Source of the DNA: an uncultured Candidatus Peribacteria bacterium
GTDB taxonomy: Bacteria; Patescibacteriota; Gracilibacteria; BD1-5; UBA6164
Direction: 5' to 3'
DNA: 52,221 bases
Assembly (NCBI GenBank): GCA_964344895.1
Contig: CAYFPB010000001.1
Location: forward strand, 16,069-68,289
Position numbers and translations under genes: made by a program
Part shown: in pieces, positions 1,948 through 42,212 of the stretch
Numbering within the stretch: position 1 is the stretch's first letter
Layout: every line of letters begins with the position of its first letter
The notes under the pieces: generated by a model
Told to the model about the DNA's origin: nothing
Databases searched by the model: none
The model's input: only the letters and a program-made list of their open reading frames with translations

Positions 1948-1950
1948 TAA

Positions 1951-2157
1951 ATGTTTATGAAAAATGTAATAGAATTAAATAATAAATTTTATACAGAGAA
2001 TTTGATAAATCATTGAATAGAAGATTTTAAAGAATATGCTGATATTAGTTATTATAACTGATTATTATCTATAGAGTGAGAGACTGAAACAGAGATAAAA
2101 GAAATATTTAATGAGTTTATGAATTATATAATATGACTTTATAATGAAACAATATAA
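1951..2157 (+). CDS. Small acidic protein (68 aa), paralog of 40513-40695; possibly a truncated HxsD-like module
   Basis: Sequence is MFMKNVIELNNKFYTENLINHGIEDFKEYADISYYNGLLSIEGETETEIKEIFNEFMNYIIGLYNETI, read codon by codon. It has the same position (immediately 5' of an HxsB-like gene) and the same layout as the 60-aa ORF at 40513. Confidence 0.5.
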
Positions 2158-2160
2158 TCT

Positions 2161-3639: not shown

Positions 3640-3664
3640 TTTTAATTTTTAATTTATATTTTTT

Positions 3665-4030: not shown

Positions 4031-4039
4031 TTAAAAAAT

Positions 4040-9866: not shown

Positions 9867-9875
9867 AAATAGAAT

Positions 9876-14960: not shown

Positions 14961-14965
14961 TTTGT

Positions 14966-18382: not shown

Positions 18383-19664
18383 AAAAGAATTTCTAAATAA
18401 AATAAAACAAACAAAAAATCCTTACTTTGCTAAGGATATTTTATCATTGTTTTTGAAAAAAGAAGTTTTTATGAAAAAAATATATTCCCAAATAGAATAC
18501 TTATGAATAAAAAGATCAGATATTAATATAATTAGTGATATAACCAATAAAATTAAGAAAAATAAAGAAACTTTTATAGATGAAAAATCAAAAGATATTT
18601 ATTATAAAGCTAGATCTATTTGATGTACTTTATGTACTTTATGAAAAGGTGTTACAGTAGTACTTAGTTATAAGTGTCATAGAGATTGTTTTTTTTGCTA
18701 TGAAGAAACACCTCAAGACCCAAAGGTAAAAATTGATCCATATAGTAGTAATGATATGGAAAAAATTTATTCAATTATAGATACAGCATTTAAGGATTCT
18801 AGCAATAAGACTTTAGCAATAACTGGGGGAGAGCCTTTCTTATTTACTGATAAAGTTTATGAGATTTTAGATTATGTAAATAAAAATTATTCTTGAAAGC
18901 ATACAAGAATATACACTACTTGAGATATAATGAATCAAGATATATTATCAAATTTAAAAAAATTGAAATTAGATGAAATAAGATATAGTATAAAACCTTA
19001 TGAAGAACCAAAGTTAGATCTTTTTAAAATGACAAAAAAGTATATAAAAACAGTAATGATAGAAATGCCAGTACAACCAGATTCTAAGGAGTATATGTTA
19101 GATATTTTATCAAAAATAGATAAAGCTTGAGATATAGATGGAATTAATTTAAATGAATTGACATTTAATAATTTAAATAAATTTAAGTATAGGGAACATA
19201 ATTATACTTTAGATTTACCTGATTCAAAAGATCAAGTTTATCATAGATATTTTGATGTACCAAAAATAGAAATATGAGTGACTTGAAGTAAACAGTTATG
19301 TTTAGAATTAATAGAGTATTTTTCTTGAAAAAAAGCTAATTTTTTTATGCATTATTGTGATTTAGATACAGTATCTCATCACCATTATCTTCATAAAAAA
19401 AATGTGGCAAAGACATTAGGTAATTGATATGAAGAAATTACTAGGTATGGATTGAATAAAGTATTAAGAATTTATTCTAATTTACCTAAAGTAAAGGATT
19501 TATTAACAAGTAATAATATAACTAATTATAATGATTATTGAAATTATATTGAAACAGGTATAGCTAATTTAGCCCTTTTTAAAGATAAATGATTTTTACA
19601 AGCAATTATTTATAAAACTTATGATAATAGTTCACTAGTAGATTATGAATTAATTAATTTATAG
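18375..19664 (+). CDS. Radical SAM protein
   Basis: 429 aa. Motifs are LSYKCHRDCFFCYEE and ITGGEPFLF. The start overlaps the previous stop (18375 vs 18382). Confidence 0.7.
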
Positions 19665-19665
19665 T

Positions 19666-20001
19666 ATGAGTAGTTTTGATTATAAAAATAATGAGGTAAT
19701 AAAATGATTTAAGTTATTGGATAAACAAGAACTGTGGCCTGCTAAAGAGGTTATGACTCTTTTTTGATATAAAAATGAGGAAGAGAGTTTTCTTGATTTA
19801 CTTAAAAAAGCAAGAAATATATGTGAGATGAAAGGTGTTGATCCTAAAAAACATTTTTTGTGAGATATGGAAGATTTAAATAGTTTATCATTAACAAAAT
19901 ACTCATCTTTTTTAATATCTATTTTTGCTGATTTGAAAAAAAAAGAGGTAACTTATGCAAAAATGTTCTTTGAAATAGAAATAAAAAATATGTATGTCTA
20001 A
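19666..20001 (+). CDS. Small DinD-like (DNA-damage-inducible protein D family-like) protein
   Basis: 111 aa. The pattern LWPAKEVMTLFGYKNEEESFLDLLKKARNICEMKGVDPKKHF ... LTKYSSFLISIFADLKKKEVTYAKMFF resembles the DinD family as I recall it. The 3' end overlaps the next gene by 8 nt. Confidence 0.4.
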
Positions 20002-22657
20002 AAATAATATCTACATTTCCTGTAATGCTATAGTTTCTAATGACAATTGGTCAATTAGTTATTTATTTAAGTGAAAAATTTTTGCAATTTCTTTAGAAAG
20101 ACTAAATAGAATAAAAGAGTTTCCAGATACTTACTTTGCTAATAGATTACCATCTTATCAAAAAGAACTATTTAATGGTATTACAGATAAAACAAGAAAT
20201 TATAAAAAATTAATAAGTTTTAGAAATTATATATCAAAATTAATTAATGATACTTTGAAAAGAAAGATTGACTTTGATATAATAGATAAAATATATTTAA
20301 TGAATTTTCCATTTGATATCACAATTAATTGATATGAAGAAAAAGTAGTTTCTGAAAAGAAGAATTTTCATCATTTATTTCATGCTTGTAGTGCTTATTT
20401 TCCTTCAAACTTTAAAAAATCAGCTATATTGTGTATGGATCATGATTGATGTGATGAGGAATTATGATGAGTAAATCCTATGCATTCAATATGGTATGCT
20501 AAAGATAATAAACTTGATTTCTTATATTCTGATAATTTTGATACAAATAAAAATCAAGTTTGAATAGGTACAGTATATCACATACATTCAAAAATATGTT
20601 CTTTAAATGAGGGGACCTTTATGTGACTTTCATGATATGGGAATCCTAAATTTAATAATGTTGATATTTTTGATTATTCATCAGGAGGGCCCTTAATATC
20701 AAAACAGTTTTTTGAACAATCAAAAGTATATAAATGAAAGCTAGATTCATATGATATAGAGTATGATAAAGAATTGGAACTTGAAAAAGATTTAATTAAT
20801 AACTTTAAAAAATATTATTGAATAGAAAAATATGATACAGATGATTTAGTAAATTCAAAATATGCAGATATAGCTGATAATGTACAAAAACAGACAGAAA
20901 AAGCTATAATATTTTTAGCTAATAAAGCCTATGAATTAACAAAATCTAAGACATTATGTATTGCTGGTGGAGTCTGATTAAATATTTTAGCTAATACAAA
21001 AATCTTAGAGCAAACCCCTTTTGAGGAAATATTTGTTCAGCCTGCTTGTTCTGATGAATGATTATCTTTATGATGATTGTATTATTATTATCATATTATT
21101 AATAAAAATAATAAAAGAATAAGATTAGAGAATCCTTGATTAGGATTTGTTTATTCAAATGATTATATAAAAAACTGTTTAGAAAATTATTGTGATAAGC
21201 TAGATTTTAAGTTATTAGAGAATAAGAGTGAACAAGTAGCTGAATTATTAAATAATAATAAAGTAGTTTGATGGTTTCAGTGATGAAGTGAATTTTGACC
21301 AAGAGCTTTATGATATAGAAGTATTTTAGCTAATCCTAAATCAAAAAAAATAAGAGATAAAGTCAACAATATAAAGCTTAGGGAACTTTTTAGGCCTTTA
21401 GCTCCTGTAATATTAGAGGCAGACATTTGAACATATATGGAAACAGATAGAAAAAGTCCATATATGACACTAGTTGCTAAAGTAAAAAATAAATATAGAA
21501 AAAAATTAGAATGAATTACTCATATAGATTTCACAGCTAGATATCAAACAGTATCAATTAAAGAAAATACTGAACTATACAATTTACTAAAATCTTATAA
21601 AAATATTTCTTGAGTTTGAGTATTAATTAATACTTCTTTTAATGTAGCAAAAGAACCTATAGTTGAATCTCCAGTTGATGCTATAAAAATGTTTTTATCT
21701 ACTGATTTAGATTATTTAATTATATGAGATTTTATAGTAGAAAAGAAAACTAAATATGATAATTTAAAATTTAATTCTAAAAGAGTATTAAAAAACTATA
21801 GTACTAATTTAAAGGAAACTATAAGAGATTTAAGAATAGTAAATACTTGCTCCAATAATTGTATATATTGTTTAGAGCAATCATACAGAATAAAAGATAA
21901 ATTTATAAATAAAGTAAATATTTTTGATAAAATTAATAATTCAAATATATCTAATAGTATAAACTTTTATTGATGAAATCCATTACTTCATCCTGATTTA
22001 GAAGAAATTATTAAGTTTTCTAAAACAAAAATTGATAATATATGAATATTAACTAATACAAAATTTTTATCAAAAGATAAAATGGAAAAATTAACTGCTA
22101 GTTGATTAACTTCAATTTGATTTTATTTCAATTGTTTTGATAAAGATAAACATCTGCTTTTAAATGGATGATGAATAAGTCTAGGAGAGTTAATTAATAA
22201 TTTGGATATTATAATAAACTCAAAAATATTTTATAAAGCTATAATTCATATAAATAAACAAAATATTGATAGGCTATATAAAGATATTTTATTGTTAAGT
22301 ACAAGGTTTTGAGTAAAAAATATTGAGTTTGTAAATTATTTCCCTTTTGATAGACCTTATAAAAATAAAGAAATTTTAGAATATGATATATTAAAAAATA
22401 GAAAAAATATAGATAATTTGTTTAAAATTATAAAAAAGTTATGATTAAAAGTAGAGTTTATAAAATTTAGCAAAGATTTTTTTTGAGAGTACTTAGATTT
22501 TTATGATTTTAATAATTGAATTGTCTGACAAATATGAGAAGAAGATAAACAAAGATTAAGTTGAAAAGATAATCCTTTTTGTTATACTGAAAATAGATGT
22601 AAAACTTGTTTTATAAAAGATAGTTGTATTTTTTTACAAAAGAAAAATGTATGATAA
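19994..22657 (+). CDS. Fusion protein: carbamoyltransferase (NodU/CmcH/TobZ-like, paralog 3) with a C-terminal radical SAM domain
   Basis: 887 aa. Every codon was hand-checked and there is no TAA/TAG before 22655. The N-terminal ~590 aa carry NFHHLFHACS, LCMDHDGCDE, IAGGVGLNILAN, WFQGGSEFGPRALGYRSIL, HIDFTARYQTV and INTSFNVAKEPIVESP. The C-terminal ~290 aa carry RIVNTCSNNCIYCLEQ, FYGGNPLLHPD and CYTENRCKTCFIKDSC. Confidence 0.8.
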
Positions 22658-25061: not shown

Positions 25062-25748
25062 ATGAAAAATAAAAAAGAAATTTTAGAATTTATTAAAAAT
25101 ATAGATTATTTATTAAAAATTACAAATTTATTATGAATTAATGATTATAAAAATTATATTTTTACTTCACCATTTGTATATAATAAAATTGAGTGATGTA
25201 AGGATACCAAGTCTATAATGGAAGAAATATTAAAACAAAAATTATGAAGTATTAATTTAATAGAACTAAATTTTCAAAATATTGATATAGATATTTTTAT
25301 AAAAATTCATAAATTACTTCCTAGTTATAAGGAAAATTTTCAGAAATGGATAAATTTGATGTATTATTCTACTATTAATTTAGAGAGTCAAAAAAATGGT
25401 AGAAAAATAAACAAAATATTTACAGATAACAATAAATTAATAAATATAAATACTTTAAGTGTTAAAGAAATAGTGTTTTGACTTGATTTAATGTTTTTAG
25501 AATGAAAAAAACTACTAGAAAGTAAAAATAATATTAATTGTCAAACAAATAATTTATTATTAATGCTTATAAGTGATTATAGAGATATATTGGAATGAAC
25601 AAGAGAAAAAAGATATAATTTTAATAAACATGAGATAGATAAAAATATGAAATATATTGAACAAGCTTTATGAAAAACAAGAATAGAGTTGTTTTCTTTA
25701 AATTTTATACAACTAATTAATAGTAATATATGAACTATAAAAGACTAG
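25062..25748 (+). CDS. Hypothetical protein
   Basis: 228-aa table-25 ORF (MKNKKEILEFIKNIDYLLKITNLLGINDYKNYIF...). No motif recognised. It is the first gene of the second plus-strand block. Confidence 0.5.
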
Positions 25749-25750
25749 AG

Positions 25751-26716
25751 ATGTATTTGTGATGGACTTGTAATAACAAATGTATTTTTTGTGTTGAAAT
25801 GAAAACAATGGAAAAAATGTGGAAAACTAAGGTTACAGAAGCTGAAATTTTTAAAAAATTAATTAAATATAAGCAGAAATGATATAACCATGTAACATAT
25901 CTTTGATGAGAACCATTTATACAACAAAATTTTTTATTTGCATTAAAAATATGAAAAAAGCTTTGATATACAATTATGGTAACAACTAATTGAAGTATGA
26001 TTCAATATGAAAAAATTGCAAAAAAATATTTGCCATATATAGATGAATTAATTATATCTATACCAATTATTGATAAAAATTTACAAGTTATAATTAATCA
26101 TACAAAAGCAATTGTTGATTTTGATAATGTATTTAAAAATATTGAAAAATATTGGGAAGGGAGATTTTTAAAGGTTAATACAGTATTAAATCCCTTAAAT
26201 ATAGATAATATTTTTCCAATTGTAGAATTTTTAAATAAATATAAGGTAAGAGAGCTATCTTTTACTTATCCTGATATAGATGTATATAAATACTCAAGAG
26301 AACATATTAAAAAATATTTAATAATGCCTTACTATGAAGTAATAAAAAAGATAAAAAAGTCAGTAGAATTTGCTATTGAGTCATGAATAAGGGTAAAAAT
26401 TACAGATATACCATTTTGTTTTCTACCAGATGAATCATGGATAAAATATACAGATGATTATGATTATGAGTGAAGAACTAAATTAATGTACCATTGATGA
26501 GAGTTTACTAGAAAATGAGCAGAAGAAAGAATTTGAGATTTAAAAGATGTACTTGATAAGAATAATGATGACCATCATTGAAAAGAACAAATAAATTCAA
26601 GAATGAGAAAATATGTAAAAGAGTGTGAAAATTGTAAGTATTTATGATTGTGTTGGTGAATAGCTGAATGCTATGATTATATTTATAAAGAACAAAAAAT
26701 TAATCCTATAATATAG
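25751..26716 (+). CDS. Radical SAM protein
   Basis: 321 aa. Motifs are MYLGWTCNNKCIFCVE, YLGGEPF and a C-terminal CENCKYLGLCWG. The track ORF 25997-26386 is an internal fragment in the same frame. Confidence 0.7.
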
Positions 26717-26718
26717 TT

Positions 26719-27720
26719 ATGAAAAAGAAAATAAAAAATGTTAAATTTGAATATTTTATTAATGAAATTATAAGAGTTAATTATAGATGTAATTGGAAAT
26801 GTATATTTTGTAATGTCTCAGAAGTTAATAATTATTGAGATAATGATATAGATTATAAAGAGGTTGTAAAAAAAATAATATTATTAGCAAAAAAATACAA
26901 TTTAAAAGAAAGAAAAAAATTGTTATTATCTTTTTCTTGATGAGAGCCGACTTTAAATAAAAACTTAATAAATTATATTAAATTAGCAAAAAAAATTTGA
27001 ATTTGAAGAATTCAAATTCAAACAAATGCAAGTTTGTTGTATAATGATCTATGACTAATAGATAACTATATACTTGCATGATTAGATGAAGTATTTATAG
27101 CACAACATTCTCATGATCCTTTTGTAAATAAGGATTTATGAGTATTTACAGAGTTTGATAAATTTTTAAATTGGTTTGAATATGTTAAAAATAAAAAAAG
27201 TATTTTATTAATTTTTAATATTGTTGTTACAAAACTTAACATATATAGTTTAATAGATTATTTAGATAAACTTAAAGAAAATGGAGTGTTTAATCATATA
27301 TATAACATATCTATATGATTTGTTCAACCAAATTGATATGCTTGGAAAAATAAAAATAAAGTATTATTAACATTTGATTGAAAAGAAAAAGAAGAGATTA
27401 ATAAAATAATTAATTATTCTAAACAAAATAATATTTTATTAGATTTTCATTATACATCTCCACCCCTTTGTATAGTTGAGAATATAGAGTATAATTTAGA
27501 ATATAAAAAATTAAAACTTTTAGAAGAACAAAGTAAAGAGAATAAACTTGATCCAAGTTTGGATAGTTTCTTTTTTATGAAATCTCAAAAAGTTAAAATT
27601 GATGAATGTAGAGGTTGTAAATATGACAAATATTGTTTTTGATTTTATAATAATTGGATAAACTTTATATGAAAAGAGCTTTTAGTAAAAAGAATCAATG
27701 AATTTAAGCAAAATTATTAA
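26719..27720 (+). CDS. Radical SAM protein
   Basis: 333 aa. Motifs are VNYRCNWKCIFCN, FSGGEPTLN and a C-terminal CRGCKYDKYCFG. Confidence 0.7.
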
Positions 27721-27771: not shown

Positions 27772-29397
27772 ATGTTAAATAAAATTAATAATTTTATAGA
27801 AAAATTATTATCATTAAATTTTCCAGATTCAATATATAAATATACTTTTTTGTATAATGAATTACTTATAAGTATTTTTATAAATAATACTTTTGTTTTA
27901 TTTTGAGTTAATTATAAAGTTAATTCTATATTAATTAATTACTATTCTTGAAATAAAACAATTTATTGAAAAAAGTTAATGCTACTTTTGTTAAAGTATG
28001 AGGAATTATTTTATAAAATATTAAAAAATTGAAATAAACAATTATCTAATTTAAGAGAAGAATCAGATTTTATAAATATTTTTGATAAAAATGAATATAA
28101 TTTGTTTGATATAGATTTAAGATTATCTTATACTTTTTTAGATGATTATGCTTGGAGAAGACAAATTCAAGAAGAGTTTTATTTTGATGAAAAGGTATTA
28201 AGTATCTATCACAGTGATTTTGAGTGCTCTAAGTGTTATTGACCAATAAAATCTTTTAATACTTTTACAAATCATCAAAAATTAATTGAAGAAAGTATTG
28301 AAGATGAGGATAATGGTTCTGATTTTTTATATACAAATATTAATGATTATGAATCAATTACAGTATGATGAAATGATAAGATTTCAGAAATTATTTCTGA
28401 TAAAAAATTATTAAATAATTATGATATAGTAAAACTGGATAAAACATGTATATCTGTTATAATGTGAGATGACTTAACTTCAATTATTAAGTATAATAAG
28501 TTAAATAAAAATAAAATGATATACATGGATCAAAATATAGATAGTCCATATAGGGCAGTTATAAATTATTTGAAAAATATTTTTATTAATGAAACTAAAA
28601 AAAATAATGAAACTATATTTTTTGGATTAAATAAAGAAAAAAATACATTTGAAATTATTGAATTTTTGTATGTAAATTTCTGAATAAAGGTTTGAAGTAT
28701 ATTATTACCTCATATTAATGTTAATGACTTGGAAAATATTTTAAATTATAAGTTGGCTGTATTTTTTACTTGAAGAGAGGTTAAGGCTCAGAGTGTTTTT
28801 AAGCTTTATCCAATAGATAATATTGAATTAACTATTCCATATGGCTTAACTAATATGTATAATTTTTATAAAAATGTTCTTAGGAAATACTGAAAAGATA
28901 ATGAAATAAGTATAGTCCAGGATTATATAAATAATCTAAAAAGTACAAATATATCATTATTTGAAAAATCAAAATGATTATGAATTGGATTTGTTATTTT
29001 TGATTTTCATATAAAATATTTTCTTGAGGATAACTTTAGGGGAGTTCCTATTTTATCCTTATTAGAGGATATGTGATTTAATATTAATTTTTTTATTTTT
29101 AAAAATTCAAATAAATATGCATTAGATATAGAAAAGTTTAGAAATATGTGATTTAATATATTATTTTCACAAGATAAAAAAAAGTTAGATAACTTTATTT
29201 CTTCAGAAAATACTCAATTATTTTATTCTGAAATTTCCAATGATTTAAGAATTTTATCTAAACACAAACAACAGTTTTCAATATGAGATTTAGAGTATTG
29301 AATAGAAGGTTTTTTTAGAACATTTAAATTGTTAATTAATAAGTGTGAAAAGGTAAAATATATTGAAAAAAATTTTGTTTATTATTTAAATAAGTAA
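27772..29397 (+). CDS. Nitrogenase component-1-type oxidoreductase family protein (NifD/K/E/N, BchN/B, CfbD-like), long form with ~190-aa N-terminal extension
   Basis: 541 aa, every codon hand-checked. ESITVGGNDKISEII and KLDKTCISVIMGDDLTSII match the family pattern (E.d.VfGG..kl...I; v..tC..e.iGDDi). It is directly followed by a shorter paralog and a NifH-like gene. Confidence 0.55.
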
Positions 29398-29398
29398 T

Positions 29399-30607
29399 AT
29401 GGATTTAGTTGAAAAATATTCTCAAGTTTATGGTAGCCCTTTCTTGACAGGTGTATTTATGTGAGTGAATGCTATTAGAGATGTAGCTTTATATGTTGAT
29501 TGACCTGATTGTATATTTTATAAATCTGATTTGTTGTATAAAACTCATGATATTTTTTCAGATTTAAAAAGTATTAATACTGATACAAAACTATATTTTT
29601 CATGAAAAATGCCAAATAAAATGGTAAGAGCTTATGATGATAAAATAAAATCTAAGTTAAAATATATAGATGCTAATAAAAAATTTAATTTATGAGTTAT
29701 CACTTGTATGCCTGTTACTTGATTACTTGCAACACAATATAATAATATATTTTCTGATTTAAAAAAAGACTTTATTTTTGTTCCATCATATACAGATAAA
29801 TTTCGGATTGATTGATATTCTATTTTCTTGAGAGAATTAGCTAAAAATATGGACTTTAATTTAAATAAAGAAAAAAAGAAGTTAAATATTTCAATAATTT
29901 GATATTTATATGATAGAAACGAATGAGATTGTATTTGAAATATTGAGGAAATAAGAAGAATTTTATGATTAATTTGAGTAAAAATTAATTCTATATGGTT
30001 AGATTGATGAAAATTAGATGATTTAAAAAATATTAAAGAATCAGAGTTATTAGTATCTTTACCAAATTGACTTTATGCTTCAAAAATATTATCAAAGAAA
30101 TTATGAGTCCCTTATATAGATTTAAATATACCATTTTGATTAAAATCTACAATTGATTTTATTAATAATATATGAAAGAAATTATCAATAGATGATTCTA
30201 TTTTATTTAAGGTTATACAAACAGAGTTAAAAATTATTAAAAAGTCAACAGATTTTATAGATGATAGAGTATTTTCAGGAATAAATTATATATATTGATG
30301 AAATCCTGATTTAAAAGAAGGTATTGTTGATATATGAAATTATTTATGAATGAATATTTTGAAATCTTATTCATATACATGAGATAAGTTACCAAATAAA
30401 TTAGATATTGATTCAAATAAATTAAATTTGCTTATATGAAATTCAGATTTTTTTATTGATTGATTAGACTATAAAAAGATAGAGTTTTGATTTCCTTCAT
30501 ATAATACACATTATTTATTAAATAGACCATATATGTGATTTAAGGGATTTTTGATTTTTATTGAAAATCTATATAATGAGTTAAAAAAGGAAAATCCTTT
30601 ATACTAA
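29399..30607 (+). CDS. Nitrogenase component-1-type oxidoreductase family protein, short form
   Basis: 402 aa, every codon hand-checked. FMGVNAIRDVALYVDGPDCIFY matches the family pattern Ga..a...i.da..l.HGp.gC. It also has LGVITCMPVTGLL and a C-terminal IEFGFPSYNTHYLLNRPYMGFKGFLIFIENL. Confidence 0.65.
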
Positions 30608-30642
30608 AAAATAGTTGTTTTTTTATAATTTAATTTATATAT

Positions 30643-31461
30643 ATGAAAAAAATTGTTATATACTGAAAATGATGAATTTGAAAATCAACTACTTCAACTC
30701 ATTTATCTGTTGCATTTGCAAAAACTTGATTAAAAGTATTACAAGTTTGATGTGATCCAAAACATGATTCTTGTAAAAGAATTTTAGACTGAGTAAGAGA
30801 TATTCCAACTGTTATTGAGTTATCAAAAAATAGAGATATTTTTGATTTTACAAAAGATTTAATAGTTCATGAGTGAAGGTTTTGAATTGATTGTATAGAA
30901 GCTTGAGGGCCAATAGCTTGATTATGATGTGCTTGAAGGTGAATATCTCTCATGTTTGAAATATTTGAGGAGATTTGATTATTAGATGAAAAAAATTATG
31001 ATGTAGTCATCTTTGATGTACTTTGAGATGTTGTTTGCTGATGATTTGCATCACCCTTAAAAATATGATTTGCTGATCAAGTATATATAGTGTTATCTGA
31101 AGAAATAATGAGTATGTATGCAGCTAATAATATATCAAAAGCAATTGTTAATTATAAAAATAATTGAATATGACTATCTTGAGTTATTTTAAATTTGAGA
31201 AGTAATGATAGTGATATATCTGTTGTTAAAGATTTTTGTAGAACTATATGAACAGATATTGTGTGAATAATTAAAAGGTCTTCTTGAATTCTGAAAGCTG
31301 AAAAAAAGAATATGACTCTTTATGAATTTGATGAATTAGATACAGATTTAGAAGAGTATGATAATTTAAGAGATTTTATATTTAATAATTCAATAAAAAT
31401 AATTCCAAAACCTTTTACAGATAAAGATTTTGATGATTTTATTTATGATAGATTTTATTAA
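30643..31461 (+). CDS. NifH/BchL/CfbC-family ATPase ([4Fe-4S] Fe-protein-like)
   Basis: 272 aa, every codon hand-checked. Motifs are IYGKGGIGKSTTS (Walker A), LQVGCDPKHDS, CIEAGGPIAGLGCAGRGI and FDVLGDVVCGGFASP. Both canonical cluster Cys are present, plus YIVLSEEIMSMYAANNI. Confidence 0.85.
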
Positions 31462-31472
31462 TAAAAAAAAGA

Positions 31473-32387
31473 ATGAAATATAGTATAATAAATCATATTA
31501 CAAGCTCATGTAATTACAATTGTACTTATTGTGATGTTATTAAGGATGGAAAAAAACTGGATGTTGAAAAAATAGATGAAATTATTGAGTTTATAAAAAT
31601 AAATTATAAGAACATTTGAGATTTTAAATTCTTTTGATGAGAACCATTATTAGTTTTTAGGCAAATAGAAAAGATAATAGTAAATACAAAAAAATATATT
31701 GAAAATGATTTTTTTGAGATTGTAACTAATACCTCATTGTTAAGTGATAAACATTTAGATTTTTTTTCAAATAATTTTAAAACTATCTATTTAAGTATAG
31801 ACAATGAAAATAATTTTAATAAAGATTTATTTAATAAAATTATTAATGATTATAATACAATAGAAAAAAAAATATATATAAATCTTGTAATAGATCCAGC
31901 TAAAATAAAACAAGCAAGAGAATTATTTTTTGAACTTTATAATTTATGATTTAAGTGATACAATTTATTACCTGTATATTTTACTAAAACTTGGACGAAA
32001 CATCAACTTTTAGATTTATCAAATTTTATTAGAGAAGTTTTAGATATTAGTTTAAATGATAAATGATTAAGAATGTATTGATTTATAAAAGAAAAATGAG
32101 ATGATTCAAAATTATCATATAATTCATTATTTTTAGATACTGATCTTAAAGTTTATTATTCAGATATTGTTTCAACATATATGTGAAAAAAATATAAAAA
32201 ATGATTATTTATATGAAATACATATGAATTATTGTTAAATAAATTATCTGATGAAATAATTAAAGACAAAAAGAAATTATTTGAAGCTATAGAAAATAGT
32301 ATAATAAATAATAAAATATGACAATTTCAATTGCATAAAATAATGGATTATTTTTCTGAATATTTAAATAAAAAAACTAACTTATAG
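31473..32387 (+). CDS. Radical SAM protein (paralog of 7646-8545)
   Basis: 304 aa. Motifs are SSCNYNCTYCD, FFGGEPLLV and LLPVYFTKTW. The track ORF 31737-31949 is an internal fragment in the same frame. Confidence 0.7.
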
Positions 32388-33858: not shown

Positions 33859-35133
33859 ATGGAAAATAAACAAAATTTGTTAAATAAAGAAAAAACAATA
33901 AAACAAAATCGTATTTGGGTACGTATAGCCAGTTCATGTAATAATAAATGTGTATTTTGTTTGGACTCAAATGCTCATGATGGTACATTTGTAAGTGAGG
34001 ATAAAGTAAAAAAACAAATAAAAGAATGATATAAAGCCTGATATGAAAATAGAGTAATTATATCTTGATGAGAAGCTTCTATAGATCCAAAGTTTGCAGA
34101 ATATATAAGTTATGCTAAAGAGTTAGGTTATGATAGAGTTCAAACAGTTACAAATGGTAATATGTTTGCTATTGAGTCTTTTTGTAAAAAAGTATTTGAT
34201 GCATGACTAGAGGAAGTAACATTTTCTTTTCATGGCCATACACCTAAACTTCATGATTATCTAGTAGATACTCCATGAGCATTTAAAAAATCATTAAAAT
34301 GATTAATTTATATAAAGAAAAATTATCCTAATGTGATAATAAATATAGATATAGTAGTAAATAAAATAAATGTTGCTTACTTACCTGATATTGTTAAGTT
34401 TTTTATGAAATTATGAGTGTATGAGTATGATATATTACAGATAATACCATTTTGAAGATGATTTCAAGAAAATAAGGAAAAATTATTTTATAATCTAGAA
34501 GAATATTCAGAAAAACTAACTCAAACATGGAAACTATCAAAAGTTCCAGGAATGTATATGTGGACAAATCGTTTTCCAGCTGAAGCCTTTGAATGATATG
34601 AAGATTTGATTCAAGATCCTAGAAAAATAAAATCAGAAGTATTTTGAGAATCAAAACATCAATTTGAACCATTTATTAAAACATGATGAAAACTAAAACC
34701 TGACTGTTATTGACAAGCTTGTGATGTTTGTTTTCTAAAACAATATTGTCATGACTTTATTAATAATAGTGAAACAAAAAAGATAAAAGAAAATGAGAAT
34801 AATTATATTCTTAGATGAGAAGAATTTCCAAGTGAAGTATATAAAAAATATTGAGAAAATTCTAAAGAATTTTTAGATTTTTTAAAAAATAAAGCGAAAG
34901 AAAAAGAGTTAATAAATGTAGCAAAATGTTTATGATGAACATGAGTATTTGAAACATATAATGATATAAAGGAAGAAAATACTCTAGAGGATTATACATT
35001 TAAATATATAAAAAATCTTTATAGAAAAAAATCACTTAGATGTAAAAACTGTAAGTACTATAAAGATTGTGAATGACTTCATATAAATTTTATTAGGAGT
35101 TATTGATTTAAAATTTTAAAACCAGTAGAATAA
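33859..35133 (+). CDS. Radical SAM protein
   Basis: 424 aa. Motifs are RIASSCNNKCVFCLD, ISGGEASIDP and FSFHGHTPKLHD. The C-terminal Cys-rich region reads CYGQACDVCFLKQYC ... CKNCKYYKDCEG. Confidence 0.75.
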
Positions 35134-36071
35134 TGGCAAATATATGATACATACAAGTAAATAGATACTGTAATAATCAGTGTCATTTTTGTAGTAATCC
35201 AAGTAACTGAAAAAATATAAGTTTTGAAAGGTGAATTGAACTACTAGATGATTTTAAAAAGAAAAATTATGCTTGAATAATTTTTACATGATGAGAACCT
35301 ACTTTATCACCAGATTTAGCTAAATGGATAGCATATTCTAAAAAATTGTGATTATGAAATAGAATAATATCAAATGGTATGAAATGTAGTGATTATGAAT
35401 ATACAAAAACTTTAAGAGACTCATGACTTGAGCTTGTTCATTTTTCTGTATATAGTTGTTATCCAAAAATTCATGATTTCTTAACAGATACACCTTGAAG
35501 TTGGGAAAAATTAATGAAGTCTATTTCAAATGCTTTGAAGCTTTGAATAAGGGTACAAATAAATACAGTACTTAATCATTATAATGAAAATCATCTTGAT
35601 AAAACTGTTAAATTTTTAACTAAATATTTTCCAGGTATAAGACATTTTATATGGAATAATCTTGATCCAGAGATGATGAGATCAACAAAAATAGCTAGAT
35701 CAACTTTACCTGATTATGATTGATTTAAAGATTCTTTGAATAGAGCAATGCAATATTTAGATTCAACTTGAAGGACTTTTAGAGCAGAAAAAATGCCTCT
35801 TTGTTATATTAGGTGATTTGAGTGGAGTTCAACTGAAACAAGAAAAATAGTAAAAGATGAAGAAAGAATAGTTCATTTTTTGGATTTTAGAGAAAAAATA
35901 CATGAAACAGATTTTGAGCATGAAAAGCTGCCTGAGTGTAGTAAGTGTGATTTAAATAGCATATGTTCTTGAATATATGAACATACAGAGTTTTATAGTT
36001 ATGTTAAAGCATATCCTCAAAAGTTATCTAAGGAGGAAAAACAAAAAATAATTGATAAAATAAAATTATAA
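35133..36071 (+). CDS. Radical SAM protein (same subfamily as 4040-4978 by eye)
   Basis: 312 aa. Motifs are VNRYCNNQCHFCSN and FTGGEPTLSPDLAKWIAYSKKLG (compare FTGGEPTLDNNLAFYIDYSKKLG at 4040), plus ECSKCDLNSICSG. The ATG overlaps the preceding TAA (taatg). Confidence 0.75.
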
Positions 36072-36145: not shown

Positions 36146-36742
36146 ATGGAACAATTTATAAAAAAAGAAGTAGGAGCAAATAATTTTGAACTACTTATTG
36201 ATACTAATCTTTTTACAAAAGAAATAGTATTTAAATCAGCTTTTATATTTCTAGAAAAATGATATTTTTTCTTTAAATTGGATGCTGATAACAATATTAT
36301 TATGCAATTTAGATTAAAAGAATGAGTAAAAGAAAATCCTGAAACTGTAATATGAGATTTTTCTGATGAGTTATTAAATAATACACTTAGAGAAAAGGTT
36401 TTTGAAGAGAATAAAGAAGTAAGGACTGAAATAATAACAAGTTCTTTAAAAAATAGTTTAAGAGAAGCTGAATTACCTAATAACTGGAAAGGTTATGAGT
36501 ATTCAGGTGATTCATATTTTGAAGAATGATGACATACAGATAATAATGAAGTAGTAGATTTTGATAAAGATATAGATGATATATTAAAAGAAATAGAAAA
36601 TGATCCTGAATTAAAGGTAGATGAAGAAGAAATAGATAAGATTTTAAAGGAGATTGAAGAAGAAGAAAAAAATGAAAATACTTGAGTTAGTTTAGATGTA
36701 GATGCTGTAGAAAAAGTAAAAAAAGATTTTAATAACAAATAA
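36146..36742 (+). CDS. hxsD: HxsD-like protein with acidic C-terminal tail, paralog of 1405-1947
   Basis: 198 aa, frame hand-checked. Contains FELLIDTNLFTKEIVFKSAFIFLEKGYFFFKL ... DFSDELLNNTLREKVFEENKEVRTEII, where LLNNTLRE compares with the LLNDYxLRE model name. The tail reads DFDKDIDDILKEIENDPELKVDEEEIDKILKEIEEEE. Confidence 0.6.
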
Positions 36743-40706: not shown

Positions 40707-42212
40707 ATGACTAATTTACTATCAAAACAAATAATTGAAAAATTAGATACAAAAAAACTATGATTTTTTAGATTTAAAAAGCTAGATAATGATACTATGC
40801 TTATCACAAACGATATATGAGCATTTAGTTATCTAACAAATATAGAATTTAAAGATTTTATAACATGAGGTTCTAATTTAACAGAAGAGAAAACAAAAGA
40901 GTTAAACTTTAAAAAGTTTTTTAAAGATACTTCTTATTATGAATCAGATTTTAAATATGAGTATGGTACAAAAAATAATTTTTTAGCATTTTGACCAATA
41001 CTTCATATTTTGATTGTTACACTTAGATGTAATCATAAATGTAAATATTGTCATGCTGCTGCTGCTCCTATGACAGCTAAACAGTTTGATATGACTACTG
41101 ATTTAGCACAAAAAACAATAGATACTATGTTTTATTCTACATCACCAGAAATAACTATTGAGTTTCAGTGATGAGAGCCTTTAGTTAATTGGAATGTAGT
41201 TAAATATAGTATTGAATATGCTAAGAAAAAAAGTAAGGAGTTATGAAAAAAAGTAAATTTTTGTATAGTTACAAACATGAGTTTGATGACAGAAGAGATA
41301 ATGGATTATTTAATAGAAAACAAAGTAGATATATCAACAAGCTTTGACTGACCAGAGGAAGTACATAATTATAATAGGACTTTTATAGAAGGTAACTCAT
41401 ATGAAAATGTTGTAAGATGGATAAATAAAATAAATAAAGCTTATAGTGATAGAGAAATTTGAATTAACAAGAAAATATGAGCAATGATTACTGTTACAAA
41501 AAAGACTTTAGCAAAGTATAAACAAGTAATTGATACTTATATAGAAAATTGAATGGATGGAATATTTATTAGACCTTTAAATCCATACTGATTTGCTGCT
41601 TCAGAGTTAAAAGAATTGTGATATTCTACAAGTGAATTTCTAGATTATTATAAGAAATCTTTAGATTATTTAATAGAAATAAATAAATCAGGAAAGCTCA
41701 TAAGAGAACACTTTTCAAGTATATATCTCTCAAAAATCTTAAATGCAAGAGATCCAAACTTTTTAGATGATAGATCTCCATGTTGAGCAAGTATTTGACA
41801 AGTTGCATATAATTATGATTGAAAAATATATAGTTGTGATGAGGGAAGAATGCTATGAAGAATGTGAATTGATGATTTTCAAATTTGAGAAGTATGAGAT
41901 AACCCAGAATATGCTTATGAAAATATGATAAAGTCAAATAGTACAAATGTAATGGTACAGTCATCGACTCTTGATGGAATGCCATGATATACTGATAGTG
42001 TATATAAGCCATACATTTGAGTTTGTCCTATACATAATTATAAAGAGAGATGATCTGTTTATCCAAATTACTCTCTTGATCCTAAAAAACAAATATCGTA
42101 TTGAGTAATTGATTACTTATTTCAAAAAATGAAGGATCCAGAAGTAAAAAGTATATTTAAACAGTGGGTAAGAGAGTCTGATAGAGCGGTAGGTAAATGT
42201 GATGTTTTATAG
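40707..42212 (+). CDS. hxsB: Radical SAM/SPASM-type maturase, HxsB-like, copy 2
   Basis: 501 aa, every codon hand-checked. Motifs are GFFRFKKLDNDTMLITNDIG, CNHKCKYCHA, FQGGEPLVNW and SPCGASIGQVAYNYDGKIYSCDEGR ... YIGVCPIH. It is collinear with 2161-3639. Confidence 0.7.

What the first reader, a model, noticed from the sequence alone, without database searches (positions are those of the whole stretch)
27772..31461. Nitrogenase-like trio (two NifD/K-type subunits plus a NifH-type ATPase) embedded among rSAM genes in a table-25 genome
Three adjacent genes make up the trio.
- 30643-31461 encodes a NifH/BchL/CfbC-type protein. It has an intact Walker A (YGKGGIGKST), LQVGCDPKHDS, and both [4Fe-4S]-ligand Cys contexts (CAGRGI, VCGGFA).
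- 29399-30607 and 27772-29397 encode two diverged paralogs of the nitrogenase component-1-type fold. Their motifs are VDGPDC, VITCMPVTG and EFGFPSY..H....P.MGF.GF in one, and VGGNDKISEII and DKTCISVIMGDDL in the other. The latter also has an extra ~190-aa N-terminal region containing a CSKCYGP motif.

Characterised members of this superfamily are Mo/V/Fe nitrogenase with NifEN, DPOR/COR of (bacterio)chlorophyll synthesis, CfbCD of F430 synthesis, and the methylthio-alkane reductase. I know of no reason to expect any of those pathways in a Gracilibacteria/SR1-type organism. Here the trio sits in the same co-oriented block as rSAM genes on both sides (26719 and 31473).

Inference: an ATP-driven low-potential reductase has been recruited into this maturation pathway, or it represents an uncharacterised nitrogenase-like (Nfl) clade.
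Basis: partly seen in the sequence, partly recalled or inferred. Interest (0 to 1): 0.9.

Follow-up and report, generated by a model that had tools for sequence, protein, structure and literature searches.

The report
Group VI nitrogenase-like reductase in Gracilibacteria
Three adjacent genes in this TGA=Gly (Gracilibacteria-type) genome encode an ATP-driven nitrogenase-like reductase of the already named but still uncharacterised "Group VI" clade, and its neighbours suggest it may act on a His-Xaa-Ser repeat peptide rather than on a tetrapyrrole.

Summary
With TGA read as Gly, 30643-31461 encodes an intact NifH-type ATPase (PF00142, 273 bits). 29399-30607 and 27772-29397 encode two diverged nitrogenase component-1 paralogs (PF00148 at 94 and 36 bits; fold confirmed with AlphaFold2 and Foldseek). 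They lie in a co-oriented run of radical-SAM (rSAM) genes, 21 in 52 kb.

It is not a new kind. It matches "Group VI" nitrogenase-like (NFL) systems, defined by Méheust et al. 2020 in Elusimicrobia, Myxococcales and two Gracilibacteria genomes as co-located with many rSAM genes. A 2026 review says no member has been characterised. The window's subunits align full length with those of Elusimicrobiota and Myxococcota loci.

Only three interface Cys are universal (four in Gracilibacteria), and there is no FeMo-co Cys. This implies a simple [4Fe-4S] relay.

The new angle is context. The window holds bona fide HxsB, HxsD and (HGS)n HxsA genes. The same trio is embedded with or next to Hxs genes in other lineages, including a 62%-GC Deltaproteobacteria/Myxococcota MAG. 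This suggests a peptide substrate instead of the published tetrapyrrole guess.

Verdict: a new member of a known, uncharacterised kind, of moderate interest.

The parts
30643..31461 (+). NflH: NifH-type ATPase / [4Fe-4S] electron donor (272 aa)
   Evidence: PF00142 at 273.5 bits. Walker A, switch I and II, and Cys96/Cys132 align with Av NifH Cys97/Cys132. Below the trusted cutoff of every NCBIfam subfamily: nifH 279/394, CfbC 271/402, BchL 207/345, BchX 163/331.
29399..30607 (+). Short component-1 subunit (402 aa, NflD-like)
   Evidence: PF00148 at 94 bits, full length. Orthologue model pLDDT 80 / pTM 0.84, with TM 0.7-0.8 to NifD/K, NifE/N, BchB and MarD/K. 27.5% identity, E = 3e-58, full length, to the Elusimicrobiota short subunit. 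Family signatures DGPDC38, DRNExD 172-177 and His371 are conserved across phyla.
27772..29397 (+). Long component-1 subunit (541 aa, NflK-like) with an extra N-terminal domain
   Evidence: PF00148 at 35.7 bits. Orthologue model pLDDT 78; Foldseek E = 8e-12 to NifK, NifEN and ChlB. E = 2e-16 to the Elusimicrobiota 589-aa subunit. Cys152 and Cys226 are universal; Cys155 is lineage-specific.
25730..27720 (+). Two rSAM genes (25730-26716, 26719-27720) immediately upstream; conserved pair
   Evidence: PF04055. Orthologues at 230-313 bits sit directly upstream of long-short in L004, L022, L026, L033 and L034, and are present in Absconditicoccus L002.
31473..32387 (+). rSAM gene immediately downstream of NflH
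   Evidence: PF04055 at 52.9 bits. Orthologues at 200-293 bits in L004, L022, L033 and L034.
33859..36071 (+). Two HxsC-family rSAM genes (33859-35133, 35133-36071); the 33859 type is the most widely conserved rSAM partner
   Evidence: NCBIfam HxsC4 at 129 bits and HxsC at 99 bits, both below cutoff. The 33859 type has orthologues of at least 230 bits in L012 (62% GC), L036 (61% GC), L055 (35% GC) and Gracilibacteria.
1405..4978 (+). Hxs unit 1: HxsD (1405-1947), HxsB (2161-3639), HxsA (HGS)n peptide (3665-4030), HxsC-like rSAM (4040-4978)
   Evidence: HxsB 497.6 bits (cutoff 370) and HxsD 62.1 bits (cutoff 50) both pass. The peptide ends HGSHGSHGSHGSHGSHGSRW.
36146..36742 (+). HxsD-like paralog (Hxs unit 2)
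   Evidence: Visibly homologous to 1405-1947 over the HxsD region (sequences). No Pfam hit in the copy used.
40707..42212 (+). Second HxsB-type rSAM (Hxs unit 2)
   Evidence: PF04055. 385-387 bits to the HxsB regions of L012 and L026.
51869..52221 (+). Second HxsA-type (HGS)n peptide, cut off by the window end
   Evidence: Repeat and leader detected.
8538..11195 (+). Two HemN-family rSAM genes (8538-9866, 9876-11195)
   Evidence: hemN 128 bits and STM4012-family 129 bits, below cutoffs. Homologues lie next to the trio in L002, L004, L026 and L055.
12858..22657 (+). Block holding three NodU/CmcH-type carbamoyltransferase paralogs (12858-14960, 14966-16993, 19994-22657; the last is fused to an rSAM domain), two rSAM genes (16994-18382, 18375-19664) and a small weak BRO-N-like ORF (19666-20001)
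   Evidence: PF02543 and PF16861, plus PF04055 in the fusion. In L004, L033 and L034 a carbamoyltransferase lies between the short subunit and NflH; one is also present in L062.

Best explanation
The trio is a Group VI nitrogenase-like (NFL) system: NflH plus a long (K-like) and a short (D-like) component-1 subunit.

Proposed mechanism, by homology with nitrogenase, DPOR and CfbCD:
1. An NflH dimer carries a [4Fe-4S] cluster bridged by Cys96 and Cys132, binds MgATP and docks onto a (long.short)2 heterotetramer.
2. ATP hydrolysis drives a low-potential electron into a simple [4Fe-4S]-type cluster at the long/short interface. Its ligands are long Cys152, long Cys226 and short Cys38, plus short Cys103 in Gracilibacteria.
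3. The electron passes to a substrate bound in the short subunit's cavity, which is lined by the family-invariant residues His50-Asp51, DRNExD 172-177 and His371. There is no FeMo-co, L-cluster or P-cluster.

The enzyme is one reductive step in a multi-enzyme radical-SAM pathway encoded by the same co-oriented gene block.

My preferred substrate is a radical-SAM-modified intermediate of the co-encoded HxsA-type (His-Gly-Ser)n peptide. That would make this an expanded "type 4" Hxs maturation system, rather than the tetrapyrrole proposed in the literature.

Shown: domain identity, fold, motif conservation, orthology to Group VI loci, gene neighbourhood. Inferred: complex stoichiometry, cluster type, direction of electron flow, and above all the substrate.
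For: Identity:
- PF00142 and PF00148 hits. No curated subfamily cutoff is passed.
- Both component-1 folds are confirmed.
- Full-length orthology to the H / long / short genes of an Elusimicrobiota locus and of Myxococcota loci with the same long/short size pattern.
- In an NJ tree, canonical NifH plus a group-IV-like Nfl form a 95% clade that excludes the window's H. The window's H lies on the same side as the H proteins of Elusimicrobia, Myxococcota and a Spirochaete that are defined by synteny.
- Méheust et al. report group VI nifH in two Gracilibacteria genomes, with up to 13 rSAM neighbours in Elusimicrobia loci.

Cluster type:
- Only 3 universal Cys, 4 in Gracilibacteria, at canonical interface positions.
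- The position aligned with NifD Cys275 is not Cys.
- This agrees with the review's conclusion that the clusters are [4Fe-4S] or similar.

Operon: gaps of 1-51 bp; a conserved rSAM-rSAM-long-short(-H) micro-synteny in Gracilibacteria and Absconditicoccus.

Hxs link:
- The window has HxsB (498 bits, cutoff 370), HxsD (62, cutoff 50) and two (HGS)n peptides.
- L012 (62% GC) has HxsA4 (63, cutoff 55) and HxsB (516, cutoff 370) flanking five rSAM genes (three or four HxsC-like) and H-long-short, all within 15 kb.
- L026, L048, L055 and L063 also carry HxsB, HxsD or HxsA-leader genes within 10 kb.
- That is about 6 of 31 H-containing loci. HXS is a rare four-gene system.
Against: - No biochemical data exist for any Group VI member.
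- The Hxs association is seen in a minority of loci. Most Myxococcota and Elusimicrobia loci show only generic HxsC-like rSAMs, scoring far below the HxsC cutoff.
- In the window the Hxs units lie about 23 kb upstream and 5-20 kb downstream of the trio. They could be independent four-gene antiphage modules sitting in the same region.
- Canonical HXS (E. coli) needs no nitrogenase-like enzyme.
- About half of the Myxococcota/Bdellovibrionota-type loci lack NflH within 10 kb and have few rSAMs. The long/short pair may therefore work differently there.
- The deep branches of my NJ tree are poorly supported, and Group VI is recovered only as one side of a 69% split.
- His371 aligns with the FeMo-co His442 position, so a more complex active-site cluster is not excluded. 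That point is described as debated.
- Models are of 54-62% identical orthologues as monomers. The tool would not accept the table-25 translation.
Confidence: 0.55

Rival explanations
1. Published hypothesis (Méheust et al. 2020): Group VI NFL reduces a C=C bond of a tetrapyrrole to make a novel cofactor, by analogy with DPOR/COR and CfbCD. The rSAM enzymes tailor the macrocycle.
For: - The characterised relatives placed nearest in published trees (groups IV-B and V) act on tetrapyrroles.
- Two HemN-family rSAM genes lie in the window (hemN 128 bits). HemN-like genes also lie next to the trio in L002, L004, L026 and L055.
- Some Elusimicrobia loci have B12-binding and HemN_C rSAM fusions, and five Elusimicrobia genomes can make uroporphyrinogen III.
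- The Cys pattern of 3 Cys plus another ligand resembles the DPOR NB-cluster.
Against: - No tetrapyrrole biosynthesis gene was found among the ~45 genes of the window.
- The HemN-like proteins score far below the HemN, HemW and HemZ cutoffs. From general knowledge, the HemN family also includes class C rSAM methyltransferases that act on peptides and other non-tetrapyrrole substrates.
- The short subunit's signature residues (DRNExD, His371) have no counterpart in BchN/BchB.
- From general knowledge, Gracilibacteria and Absconditabacteria have reduced genomes with no known tetrapyrrole pathway. Scavenging cannot be excluded.
Confidence: 0.15
2. Scaffold/maturase hypothesis: the long/short pair is a NifEN-like assembly scaffold and NflH a maturase. 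With NifB-like rSAM enzymes, carbamoyltransferases (HypF-like chemistry) and His-rich HxsA peptides acting as metal carriers, they would build or insert an unusual metallocluster.
For: - Foldseek ranks NifEN structures among the top hits for both subunits.
- His371 is invariant and aligns with the M-cluster His ligand position of NifD and VnfD.
- Carbamoyltransferase genes are inserted within the Nfl operon in L004, L033 and L034, and one is present in L062 with a weak HypF_C hit.
- (HGS)n peptides look like metal binders (this reading is an inference).
- Whether Group VI binds an active-site cluster is described as debated.
Against: - No NifB-type protein was identified (NCBIfam).
- The Cys275-equivalent is absent.
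- NifEN similarity is no higher than similarity to NifDK, BchNB or MarDK.
- No candidate client enzyme for such a cluster is present in the window.
Confidence: 0.1
3. Electron-supply hypothesis: the trio is a dedicated ATP-driven source of low-potential electrons that re-reduces the [4Fe-4S] clusters of the many co-encoded rSAM enzymes, in organisms with few ferredoxin/flavodoxin systems. It would not modify a substrate itself.
For: - rSAM density is extreme (21 in 52 kb), and H-containing loci are the rSAM-rich ones.
- ATP-driven low-potential activation by nitrogenase-related machinery has a precedent in the MCR activation complex.
Against: - The conserved, family-specific polar residues in the short subunit (DRNExD, His50-Asp51, His371) suggest a specific substrate or cofactor site.
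- Loci with long/short but no H and almost no rSAM exist.
- No known rSAM system uses such a donor (general knowledge).
Confidence: 0.1
4. Coincidental neighbourhood: the trio is a Group VI NFL with an unrelated function, and the Hxs units in the window are independent antiphage HXS-type modules that happen to lie in the same variable, rSAM-rich region.
For: - HXS works as a self-contained four-gene antiphage system in E. coli.
- The window's unit 1 is a compact D-B-A-C block 23 kb from the trio.
- Most Group VI loci show no HxsA or HxsB within 10 kb.
Against: - Co-location recurs in at least five other loci from lineages of very different GC content and genetic code: L012, L026, L048, L055 and L063.
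- In L012 the trio is physically interleaved between the Hxs-family rSAM genes and HxsA4/HxsB.
- The trio has no match to PADLOC defence models. This neither supports nor excludes a defence role.
Confidence: 0.1

Closest known systems
Group VI nitrogenase-like (NFL) systems, NflH/NflD/NflK (Méheust et al. 2020, ISME J 14:2907; reviewed in Chem Rev 2026, PMC13474568 section 7)
   Same: - The NifH-type protein has Walker A and both cluster Cys.
- Two highly divergent NifD/K-like partners carry at most four of the six P-cluster Cys and lack the FeMo-co Cys.
- There is no NifB.
- It is embedded among many rSAM genes.
- It occurs in Elusimicrobia, Myxococcales and Gracilibacteria.
- The window's subunits align full length with the Elusimicrobiota and Myxococcota proteins.
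   Different: - Gene order is long-short-H here, against H-long-short in Elusimicrobia, Myxococcota and Absconditicoccus.
- Gracilibacteria have extra Cys (short Cys103 and Cys178; long Cys155; Cys178 and Cys155 are shared with Absconditicoccus).
- Hxs genes, carbamoyltransferases and 21 rSAMs are co-located, which the 2020 paper does not describe.
- The genetic code is table 25.
DPOR (BchL/ChlL + BchN/B) and COR (BchX/Y/Z), Group V
   Same: - ATP-driven Fe-protein plus a heterotetramer with a single inter-subunit [4Fe-4S] cluster that has fewer than six ligands.
- No complex cofactor.
- Similar fold (TM about 0.7-0.75 to 3aer and 3aeu chains).
   Different: - BchL and BchX NCBIfam scores are far below cutoff (207/345 and 163/331).
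- The ligand distribution differs: two Cys from the long subunit plus one or two from the short, against three Cys from BchN plus one Asp from BchB (plus established DPOR knowledge).
- No chlorophyll pathway genes are present.
CfbC/CfbD (Ni-sirohydrochlorin a,c-diamide reductive cyclase, Group IV-B)
   Same: - The NifH-like protein scores almost as well on the CfbC model (271 bits) as on NifH (279 bits).
- A simple [4Fe-4S] relay.
   Different: - Below the CfbC cutoff of 402.
- CfbD is a homodimer of one subunit type, whereas here there are two very different paralogs, one with an N-terminal extension of about 140 aa.
- The CfbD model gives only an 18.7-bit hit.
Canonical HXS antiphage system (HxsD-HxsB-HxsC-HxsA; Li et al., Nat Commun 2026, PMC13128918)
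   Same: - HxsB and HxsD in the window pass the NCBIfam equivalog cutoffs.
- His-Xaa-Ser repeat peptides are present.
- There are multiple HxsC-family rSAM enzymes.
   Different: - The canonical system has four genes and no nitrogenase-like component.
- Its HxsA has five HxS repeats plus a peptidoglycan-binding domain. Here HxsA is a ~120-aa peptide with a conserved leader and 5-10 tandem HGS repeats ending in Trp, and the L012 counterpart passes the rare 'HxsA4' model.
- Gene order here is D-B-A-C.
- Many extra rSAM paralogs are present.
Methylthio-alkane reductase (MarBHDK) and isethionate reductase, Group IV-C/F
   Same: - A nitrogenase-like ATP-dependent reductase acting on a non-N2 substrate.
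- Similar fold (9d9u and 9fmg among the Foldseek hits).
   Different: - MAR uses a P-cluster and an L-cluster-type cofactor made by MarB/NifB.
- Here the Cys set is incomplete, there is no NifB, and there is no sulfur-metabolism or ABC-transporter context.
- The H protein lies outside the 95% clade that holds canonical NifH and the Treponema Nfl.

Membership tests
Group VI NFL (Méheust et al. 2020) | NifH-like protein with a nucleotide-binding motif and the two Cys equivalent to Av Cys97/Cys132 | tested here: met
   GKGGIGKST 8-16, Cys96 and Cys132; alignment to solved NifH.
Group VI NFL (Méheust et al. 2020) | NifH-like protein branches outside groups I-V, together with the Elusimicrobia/Myxococcales/Gracilibacteria sequences | tested here: met
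   NJ tree, 110 sequences, 200 bootstraps. The NifH + Treponema Nfl + Methanobacterium clade (95%) excludes the window. With BchL added the split has 69% support. The window lies on the same side as the Elusimicrobia, Myxococcota and Spirochaete H proteins defined by synteny. Caveats: NJ only; few labelled references; no BchX, confirmed CfbC or MarH; deep nodes are weak.
Group VI NFL (Méheust et al. 2020) | Adjacent, highly divergent NifD- and NifK-like genes lacking part of the P-cluster Cys set and the FeMo-co ligands | tested here: met
   PF00148 at 94 and 36 bits. 13-18% identity to solved D/K/E/N/B chains. 3 universal Cys, 4 in Gracilibacteria. No Cys at the Cys275 position. Deviation: a His (His371) is present at the position aligned with His442.
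Group VI NFL (Méheust et al. 2020) | D/K-like proteins homologous to those of genomes listed as Group VI carriers | tested here: met
   Short subunit E = 3e-58 to the Elusimicrobiota L001 protein. E = 2e-52 to L025, a Deltaproteobacteria '66_101' SR-2 MAG that matches by name the bin SR2-17_..._Deltaproteobacteria_66_101 in Table S2.
Group VI NFL (Méheust et al. 2020) | Co-location with multiple radical-SAM genes | tested here: met
   21 rSAM genes in the window, 5 of them within 5 kb of the trio.
Group VI NFL (Méheust et al. 2020) | Genome lacks NifB/NifEN-type cofactor assembly genes | tested here: inconclusive
   None was found among the window's genes. The rest of the genome is not available.
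Mo/V/Fe nitrogenase (groups I-III) | Six P-cluster Cys (three in D, three in K) and the FeMo-co ligands Cys275 and His442; NifH/D/K equivalog scores | tested here: not met
   Only 3-4 Cys. No Cys275 equivalent. nifH 279 against a cutoff of 394; nifD 26 against 654; nifK 23 against 427.
DPOR / COR (group V) | BchL/BchX, BchN/Y and BchB/Z equivalog membership; three Cys from N plus one Asp from B as ligands | tested here: not met
   BchL 207/345, BchX 163/331, BchB 46/490, BchZ 43/529. The ligand distribution differs.
CfbCD (group IV-B) | CfbC and CfbD equivalog membership; a single homodimeric catalytic subunit | tested here: not met
   CfbC 271/402; CfbD (methan_mark_13) 18.7/268. Two distinct paralogous subunits are present.
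   PF00142 at 273 bits, against CbiA 56, ParA 27.6 and MipZ 26.8. MinD TIGR01968 scores 31.5 against a cutoff of 213.
HXS / His-Xaa-Ser system (context genes, not the trio) | HxsB, HxsC and HxsD equivalogs plus a His-Xaa-Ser repeat protein, in the order D-B-C-A | tested here: inconclusive
   HxsB 498/370 and HxsD 62/50 pass. The repeat peptide is present, but HxsA3 scores only 26/65. The best HxsC score is 99/268 (fails). Order is D-B-A-C. In L012, HxsA4 (63/55) and HxsB (516/370) pass.

The most novel reading that the evidence does not exclude
Group VI nitrogenase-like enzymes are the reductase component of an expanded His-Xaa-Ser ("type 4" Hxs) maturation machinery. Together with a battery of HxsB/HxsC-family radical-SAM enzymes they would remodel a ribosomal (His-Gly-Ser)n peptide. 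This would be the first nitrogenase-superfamily enzyme acting on a peptide-derived substrate. Its product could be an exported effector used in phage defence or in the predatory or episymbiotic lifestyle of its hosts (Gracilibacteria, Absconditicoccus praedator, Myxococcota, Bdellovibrionota).
Probability: 0.25. Interest if true: 0.85.

Novelty: new member of a known kind. Interest (0 to 1): 0.5.

Why it matters
Group VI is the only major branch of the nitrogenase superfamily with no characterised member. The 2026 review names finding its function as a central open problem and notes the lack of cultivable hosts.

This window adds no new kind, but it sharpens the problem in three ways:
1. The system is widespread and conserved in TGA=Gly lineages. 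There are about 40 short-subunit relatives, including one in the co-cultured predator Ca. Absconditicoccus praedator. That gives an experimental handle.
2. Only three interface Cys, plus a DRNExD/His371 signature, are universal. This narrows the cofactor question.
3. The repeated linkage to HxsA/HxsB/HxsD genes, whose canonical four-gene form was shown in 2026 to mature an antiphage effector, offers a concrete alternative to the tetrapyrrole guess that can be tested by mass spectrometry.

If the peptide hypothesis holds, it would extend nitrogenase-type ATP-driven reduction to RiPP-like chemistry.

Tried and rejected
- **MinD/ParA/Mrp identity for the H protein:** rejected by scores.
- **Foreign or contaminant origin:** rejected. 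GC is a uniform 20% and all three genes carry 18-26 in-frame TGA=Gly codons.
- **True nitrogenase, DPOR/COR, CfbCD or MAR membership:** rejected by NCBIfam cutoffs, the Cys pattern and the tree.
- **Known or candidate antiphage system containing the trio:** no PADLOC hit for H, long or short. The rSAMs give only generic viperin-like matches.
- **Structure prediction of the window's own proteins:** I modelled correctly translated orthologues instead: P0004 (62% identical) and P0166 (54% identical). No complex prediction was possible, so the interface cluster geometry is inferred from alignment only.
- **Sequence-profile mapping of the N-terminal ligands onto solved structures:** HMMER aligned only the C-terminal two-thirds. 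I used MAFFT with BchN/BchB and Treponema Nfl references instead. Local register around Cys103 is uncertain by 1-2 residues.
- **First Biopython bootstrap tree:** timed out and was replaced by a numpy NJ implementation. No ML program was available.
- **ISME J version of the Méheust paper:** not held. The bioRxiv version and its supplements were used.
- **HxS repeats in L048 and L063:** looked for near the HxsB-like genes; none found within the stretch held.
- **Literature searches:** Absconditabacteria + radical SAM, and His-Xaa-Ser + nitrogenase, both returned nothing.

Full report

Yes. The window has 20% GC and is almost ORF-free under table 11. ORF coverage is 5.5 kb with TGA as stop and 62 kb with TGA as sense. 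In the NifH-like gene the Walker A motif reads Y-G-K-G-G-I-G-K-S-T, and every invariant glycine is a TGA codon. TGA therefore means Gly, not Trp, which is table 25, the Gracilibacteria/Absconditabacteria code.

With that code the three genes are intact ORFs at exactly the stated coordinates, and all the quoted motifs are present. Pfam gives the following:
- PF00142 at 273.5 bits for 30643-31461. MinD/ParA/Mrp-type models score only 16-56 bits.
- PF00148 at 94.2 bits over the full length of 29399-30607.
- PF00148 at 35.7 bits for 27772-29397, above the 28.6 gathering score.

The flanking genes 25730, 26719, 31473, 33859 and 35133 are all radical-SAM (rSAM) enzymes. Intergenic gaps within the block are 51, 1, 35 and 11 bp. 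The three genes carry 18, 26 and 25 in-frame TGA codons and share the window's composition, so they are native to this genome.

One detail needs correcting. The long protein's N-terminal extension is about 140 residues, not about 190. The "CSKCYGP" motif is part of HSDFEC152, which aligns with the canonical first cluster-ligand position of the fold and is conserved in all phyla. The first ~90 residues are predicted with confidence as a separate helix / four-strand / two-helix domain.

**2. What is it?**

*The NifH-like protein.* It aligns end to end with solved NifH structures. Walker A, switch I, switch II and both cluster cysteines (Cys96 and Cys132, matching Av Cys97 and Cys132) are intact. 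It misses the trusted cutoff of every curated subfamily: nifH 279/394, CfbC 271/402, BchL 207/345, BchX 163/331.

*The two PF00148 proteins.* They are very diverged, with best NCBIfam hits of about 50 bits against cutoffs near 500. The prediction tool would not accept table-25 translations, so I modelled correctly translated orthologues:
- Short subunit orthologue: pLDDT 80, pTM 0.84.
- Long subunit orthologue: pLDDT 78.
- Foldseek matches both to the whole nitrogenase component-1 superfamily (NifD/K, NifE/N, Anf, Vnf, BchN/B, MarD/K) at 11-18% identity, with no preferred branch.

*Relatives of the subunits.*
- The short subunit has about 40 relatives, and every one that carries an organism name is from Gracilibacteria or Absconditabacteria, including Ca. 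Absconditicoccus praedator.
- The long subunit has 29 relatives, all of the Gracilibacteria type.
- A profile search of 1.84 billion representatives finds 253 family members at E ≤ 1e-30.
- Scans of GTDB genomes and of metagenomes place more distant members in Myxococcota/Polyangiales (many), Oligoflexales and Bdellovibrio, a Spirochaete, and Elusimicrobia.

*Direct comparison with an Elusimicrobiota locus.* That locus reads rSAM, rSAM-SPASM, H (273 aa), 589 aa, 424 aa. It shows the same long/short architecture and full-length homology. Short against short is 27.5% identical with E = 3e-58, and long against long gives E = 2e-16.

**3. Comparison with the literature**

This is the "Group VI" nitrogenase paralog of Méheust et al. 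2020. They described a NifH clade outside groups I-V with very divergent NifD/K-like partners that lack part of the P-cluster cysteines. It lies next to up to 13 rSAM genes in groundwater Elusimicrobia, and they found it by HMM in 14 Myxococcales and two Gracilibacteria genomes. One of my loci (L025, Deltaproteobacteria "66_101", SR-2) matches by name a bin in their Table S2.

A 2026 Chem Rev review states the following:
- Group VI NflD/K have at most four of the six P-cluster Cys.
- They lack NifB and the FeMo-co ligands.
- They probably use [4Fe-4S]-type clusters.
- They are proposed to act on a tetrapyrrole.

My NJ tree used 110 sequences and 200 bootstraps. Labelled NifH, BchL and a Treponema Nfl were taken from annotated plasmids. 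The tree puts canonical NifH and the group-IV-like sequences in a 95% clade that excludes the window. The window's H is in a 100% Gracilibacteria+Absconditicoccus clade. That clade lies on the same side of the split as the Elusimicrobia, Myxococcota and Spirochaete H proteins defined by synteny. Deep nodes are weak. On this evidence I file the trio as a member of Group VI.

**4. Anatomy relevant to mechanism**

Cross-phylum alignment shows:
- In the short subunit only Cys38 (in DGPDC) is universal.
- In the long subunit Cys152 (in HSDxEC) and Cys226 (in TC…G[DE]D) are universal.
- Cys103 is specific to Gracilibacteria. Cys178 (short) and Cys155 (long) are found only in Gracilibacteria and Absconditicoccus.
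- That gives three universal cysteines at canonical inter-subunit cluster positions, four in Gracilibacteria. This fits a single [4Fe-4S] relay of the DPOR/NifEN/CfbD kind rather than a P-cluster.

The short subunit also carries signatures absent from BchN/B and the Treponema Nfl: His50-Asp51, DRNExD (172-177) and EFGFPSxxxH371. These are invariant from Gracilibacteria to Elusimicrobia.

In the HMMER alignments His371 falls at the position of the FeMo-co/FeV-co histidine of alpha chains. The position aligned with Cys275 is not cysteine. Whether Group VI has an active-site cluster is described as debated, and the invariant His is relevant to that question.

Gene order also varies:
- long-short-H in Gracilibacteria and the Spirochaete;
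- H-long-short in Absconditicoccus, Myxococcota and Elusimicrobia.

Two locus types exist:
- H-containing, rSAM-rich loci;
- loci with only long+short, no H within 10 kb and zero or one rSAM (Oligoflexales/Bdellovibrio-like).

**5. Context and the new angle**

The window contains 21 rSAM genes in 52 kb. It also contains:
- three NodU/CmcH-type carbamoyltransferases, one fused to an rSAM domain;
- two HemN-family rSAMs;
- two Hxs units.

Hxs unit 1 is HxsD (62 bits, cutoff 50), HxsB (498 bits, cutoff 370), an HxsA peptide ending HGSHGSHGSHGSHGSHGSRW, and an HxsC-like rSAM. Unit 2 is an HxsD paralog at 36146, HxsB at 40707 and a second (HGS)n peptide at 51869.

The rSAMs that flank the trio are HxsC-family paralogs below the HxsC cutoff. 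The pair 25730/26719 sits directly upstream of long-short in all Gracilibacteria loci examined. Homologues of the pair, together with 35133-, 18375-, 4040- and HemN-type rSAMs, precede H-long-short in Absconditicoccus.

The Hxs linkage is not confined to this lineage:
- **L012** is a 62%-GC Deltaproteobacteria/Myxococcota MAG. Its HxsA4 (63 bits, cutoff 55) and HxsB (516 bits, cutoff 370) flank five rSAMs (three or four HxsC-like) and H-long-short within about 15 kb.
- **L026, L048, L055 and L063** carry HxsB-like, HxsD or HxsA-leader genes within 10 kb.

In total about 6 of 31 H-containing loci show the link, and many of the others are truncated by contig ends.

The canonical four-gene HXS system was shown in March 2026 to be an antiphage system. 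[quoted passage not shown] No held paper mentions His-Xaa-Ser and nitrogenase together. The trio has no PADLOC match.

**6. Most likely mechanism and rivals**

*Best supported.* A Group VI NFL reductase, in which an NflH dimer uses ATP to push low-potential electrons through an interface [4Fe-4S] cluster of a (long.short)2 core to a substrate produced by the co-encoded rSAM enzymes. I favour an rSAM-modified HxsA-type peptide as substrate, at about 0.25-0.3. The published tetrapyrrole hypothesis is at about 0.15. It rests mainly on analogy and on HemN/B12-type rSAM neighbours, and no tetrapyrrole pathway gene is seen in this window.

*Other rivals:*
- a NifEN-like scaffold for an unusual metallocluster (invariant His371, carbamoyltransferases, His-rich peptides);
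- a dedicated electron supply for the rSAM battery;
- coincidental co-location of independent HXS defence modules.

Nothing about the substrate is shown. All of it is inference from gene neighbourhood.

**7. Verdict**

The entity is a new member of a known but uncharacterised kind, not a categorically new system, so the original 0.9 is too high.

It remains of moderate interest for three reasons:
- Group VI function is an acknowledged open question.
- A co-cultured carrier exists (Absconditicoccus).
- The Hxs linkage gives a specific, testable alternative hypothesis.

Noticed in passing
window 1-52221: Extreme radical-SAM density. 20 genes have PF04055 above its gathering score, and one more rSAM/SPASM gene (43207-44229, SbtM-like) is identified by NCBIfam. 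That is 21 of about 45 genes, nearly all on the + strand.
   Followed up: partly
window 1405-4978; 36146-36742; 40707-42212; 51869-52221: Two Hxs units (HxsD, HxsB, an (HGS)n HxsA peptide, HxsC-like). Gene order is D-B-A-C, not the D-B-C-A order seen in 99.6% of canonical HXS antiphage systems. The HxsA peptides share a conserved leader (FPKIKKKLxGF[IL]TEE...SKKDAL) and end in Trp.
   Followed up: partly
window 12858-14960, 14966-16993, 19994-22657; L004 11184-13268; L033; L034; L062 1-237: Three NodU/CmcH-type carbamoyltransferase paralogs, one fused to a C-terminal rSAM domain (887 aa). In other Gracilibacteria loci a carbamoyltransferase gene sits between the short subunit and NflH, so it appears to belong to the same operon.
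   Followed up: partly
window 32377-33678 (-): A 433-aa polytopic membrane protein whose N-terminus matches the type IV prepilin peptidase family A24 (PF01478, 30.7 bits), directly after the trio on the opposite strand. The HxsA leaders contain G|F[IL]TEE, which loosely resembles a prepilin cleavage motif (Gly at -1, Phe at +1, Glu at +5). The Gly is not conserved in all copies, so this is speculative.
   Followed up: no
window 36768-40409 (-): A 1213-aa predicted secreted or surface protein, rich in Cys, Ser, Thr and Asn, with a long near-exact internal direct repeat (...SKHDTWTK..VTVSINCSDSDSGCTSKKYRVESSNFNCDSSGDWTNGTSKTFDTNGTYYICFRAKDRAGNGYVYSDVSIVKIDKT...). It is the only large gene on the minus strand within the cluster.
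   Followed up: no
public database entries P0001, P0005-P0041, P0164-P0190: Most public translations of these Gracilibacteria proteins read TGA as Trp (6-7% Trp, about 1% Gly) instead of Gly. Only five of the 43 short-subunit entries (four named NCBI records plus JGI entry P0043) are translated correctly. Most long-subunit entries therefore have no precomputed PF00148 hit, which probably hides the family from routine surveys.
   Followed up: yes
L005, L009, L011, L013, L037-L042, L047: A second locus type (Oligoflexales/Bdellovibrio-like, 35-51% GC) has the long+short pair, but no NifH-like gene within 10 kb and zero or one rSAM gene. Either the Fe-protein is encoded elsewhere or the pair works differently there.
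   Followed up: partly
taxon list: Carriers are enriched in predatory or episymbiotic lineages: Ca. Absconditicoccus praedator, Gracilibacteria, Myxococcota/Polyangiales, Bdellovibrio and Oligoflexales. Elusimicrobia and one Spirochaete are exceptions. No statistical test was done.
   Followed up: no
L028 3551-11272 (Elusimicrobia): Two tandem copies of the system. In each, the NifH-like region lies in one long ORF (822 and 874 aa) directly upstream of a short subunit. This could be an H-long fusion or an over-extended ORF call in 69%-GC DNA.
   Followed up: no
L032 4944-8117 (Treponema saccharophilum plasmid pTS1): A different, uncharacterised Nfl trio (H 252 aa plus two 'nitrogenase component 1' proteins), flanked by ABC-transporter substrate-binding and iron-permease genes. 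It was used here only as a group-IV-like reference.
   Followed up: no
window 44232-45050; 45058-45768; 22647-23222; 19666-20001: Other cluster members: a DUF3050 protein (149 bits), an ankyrin-repeat protein, a nitroreductase-family protein, and a small ORF with a weak BRO-N (phage-associated) domain hit below the gathering score.
   Followed up: no
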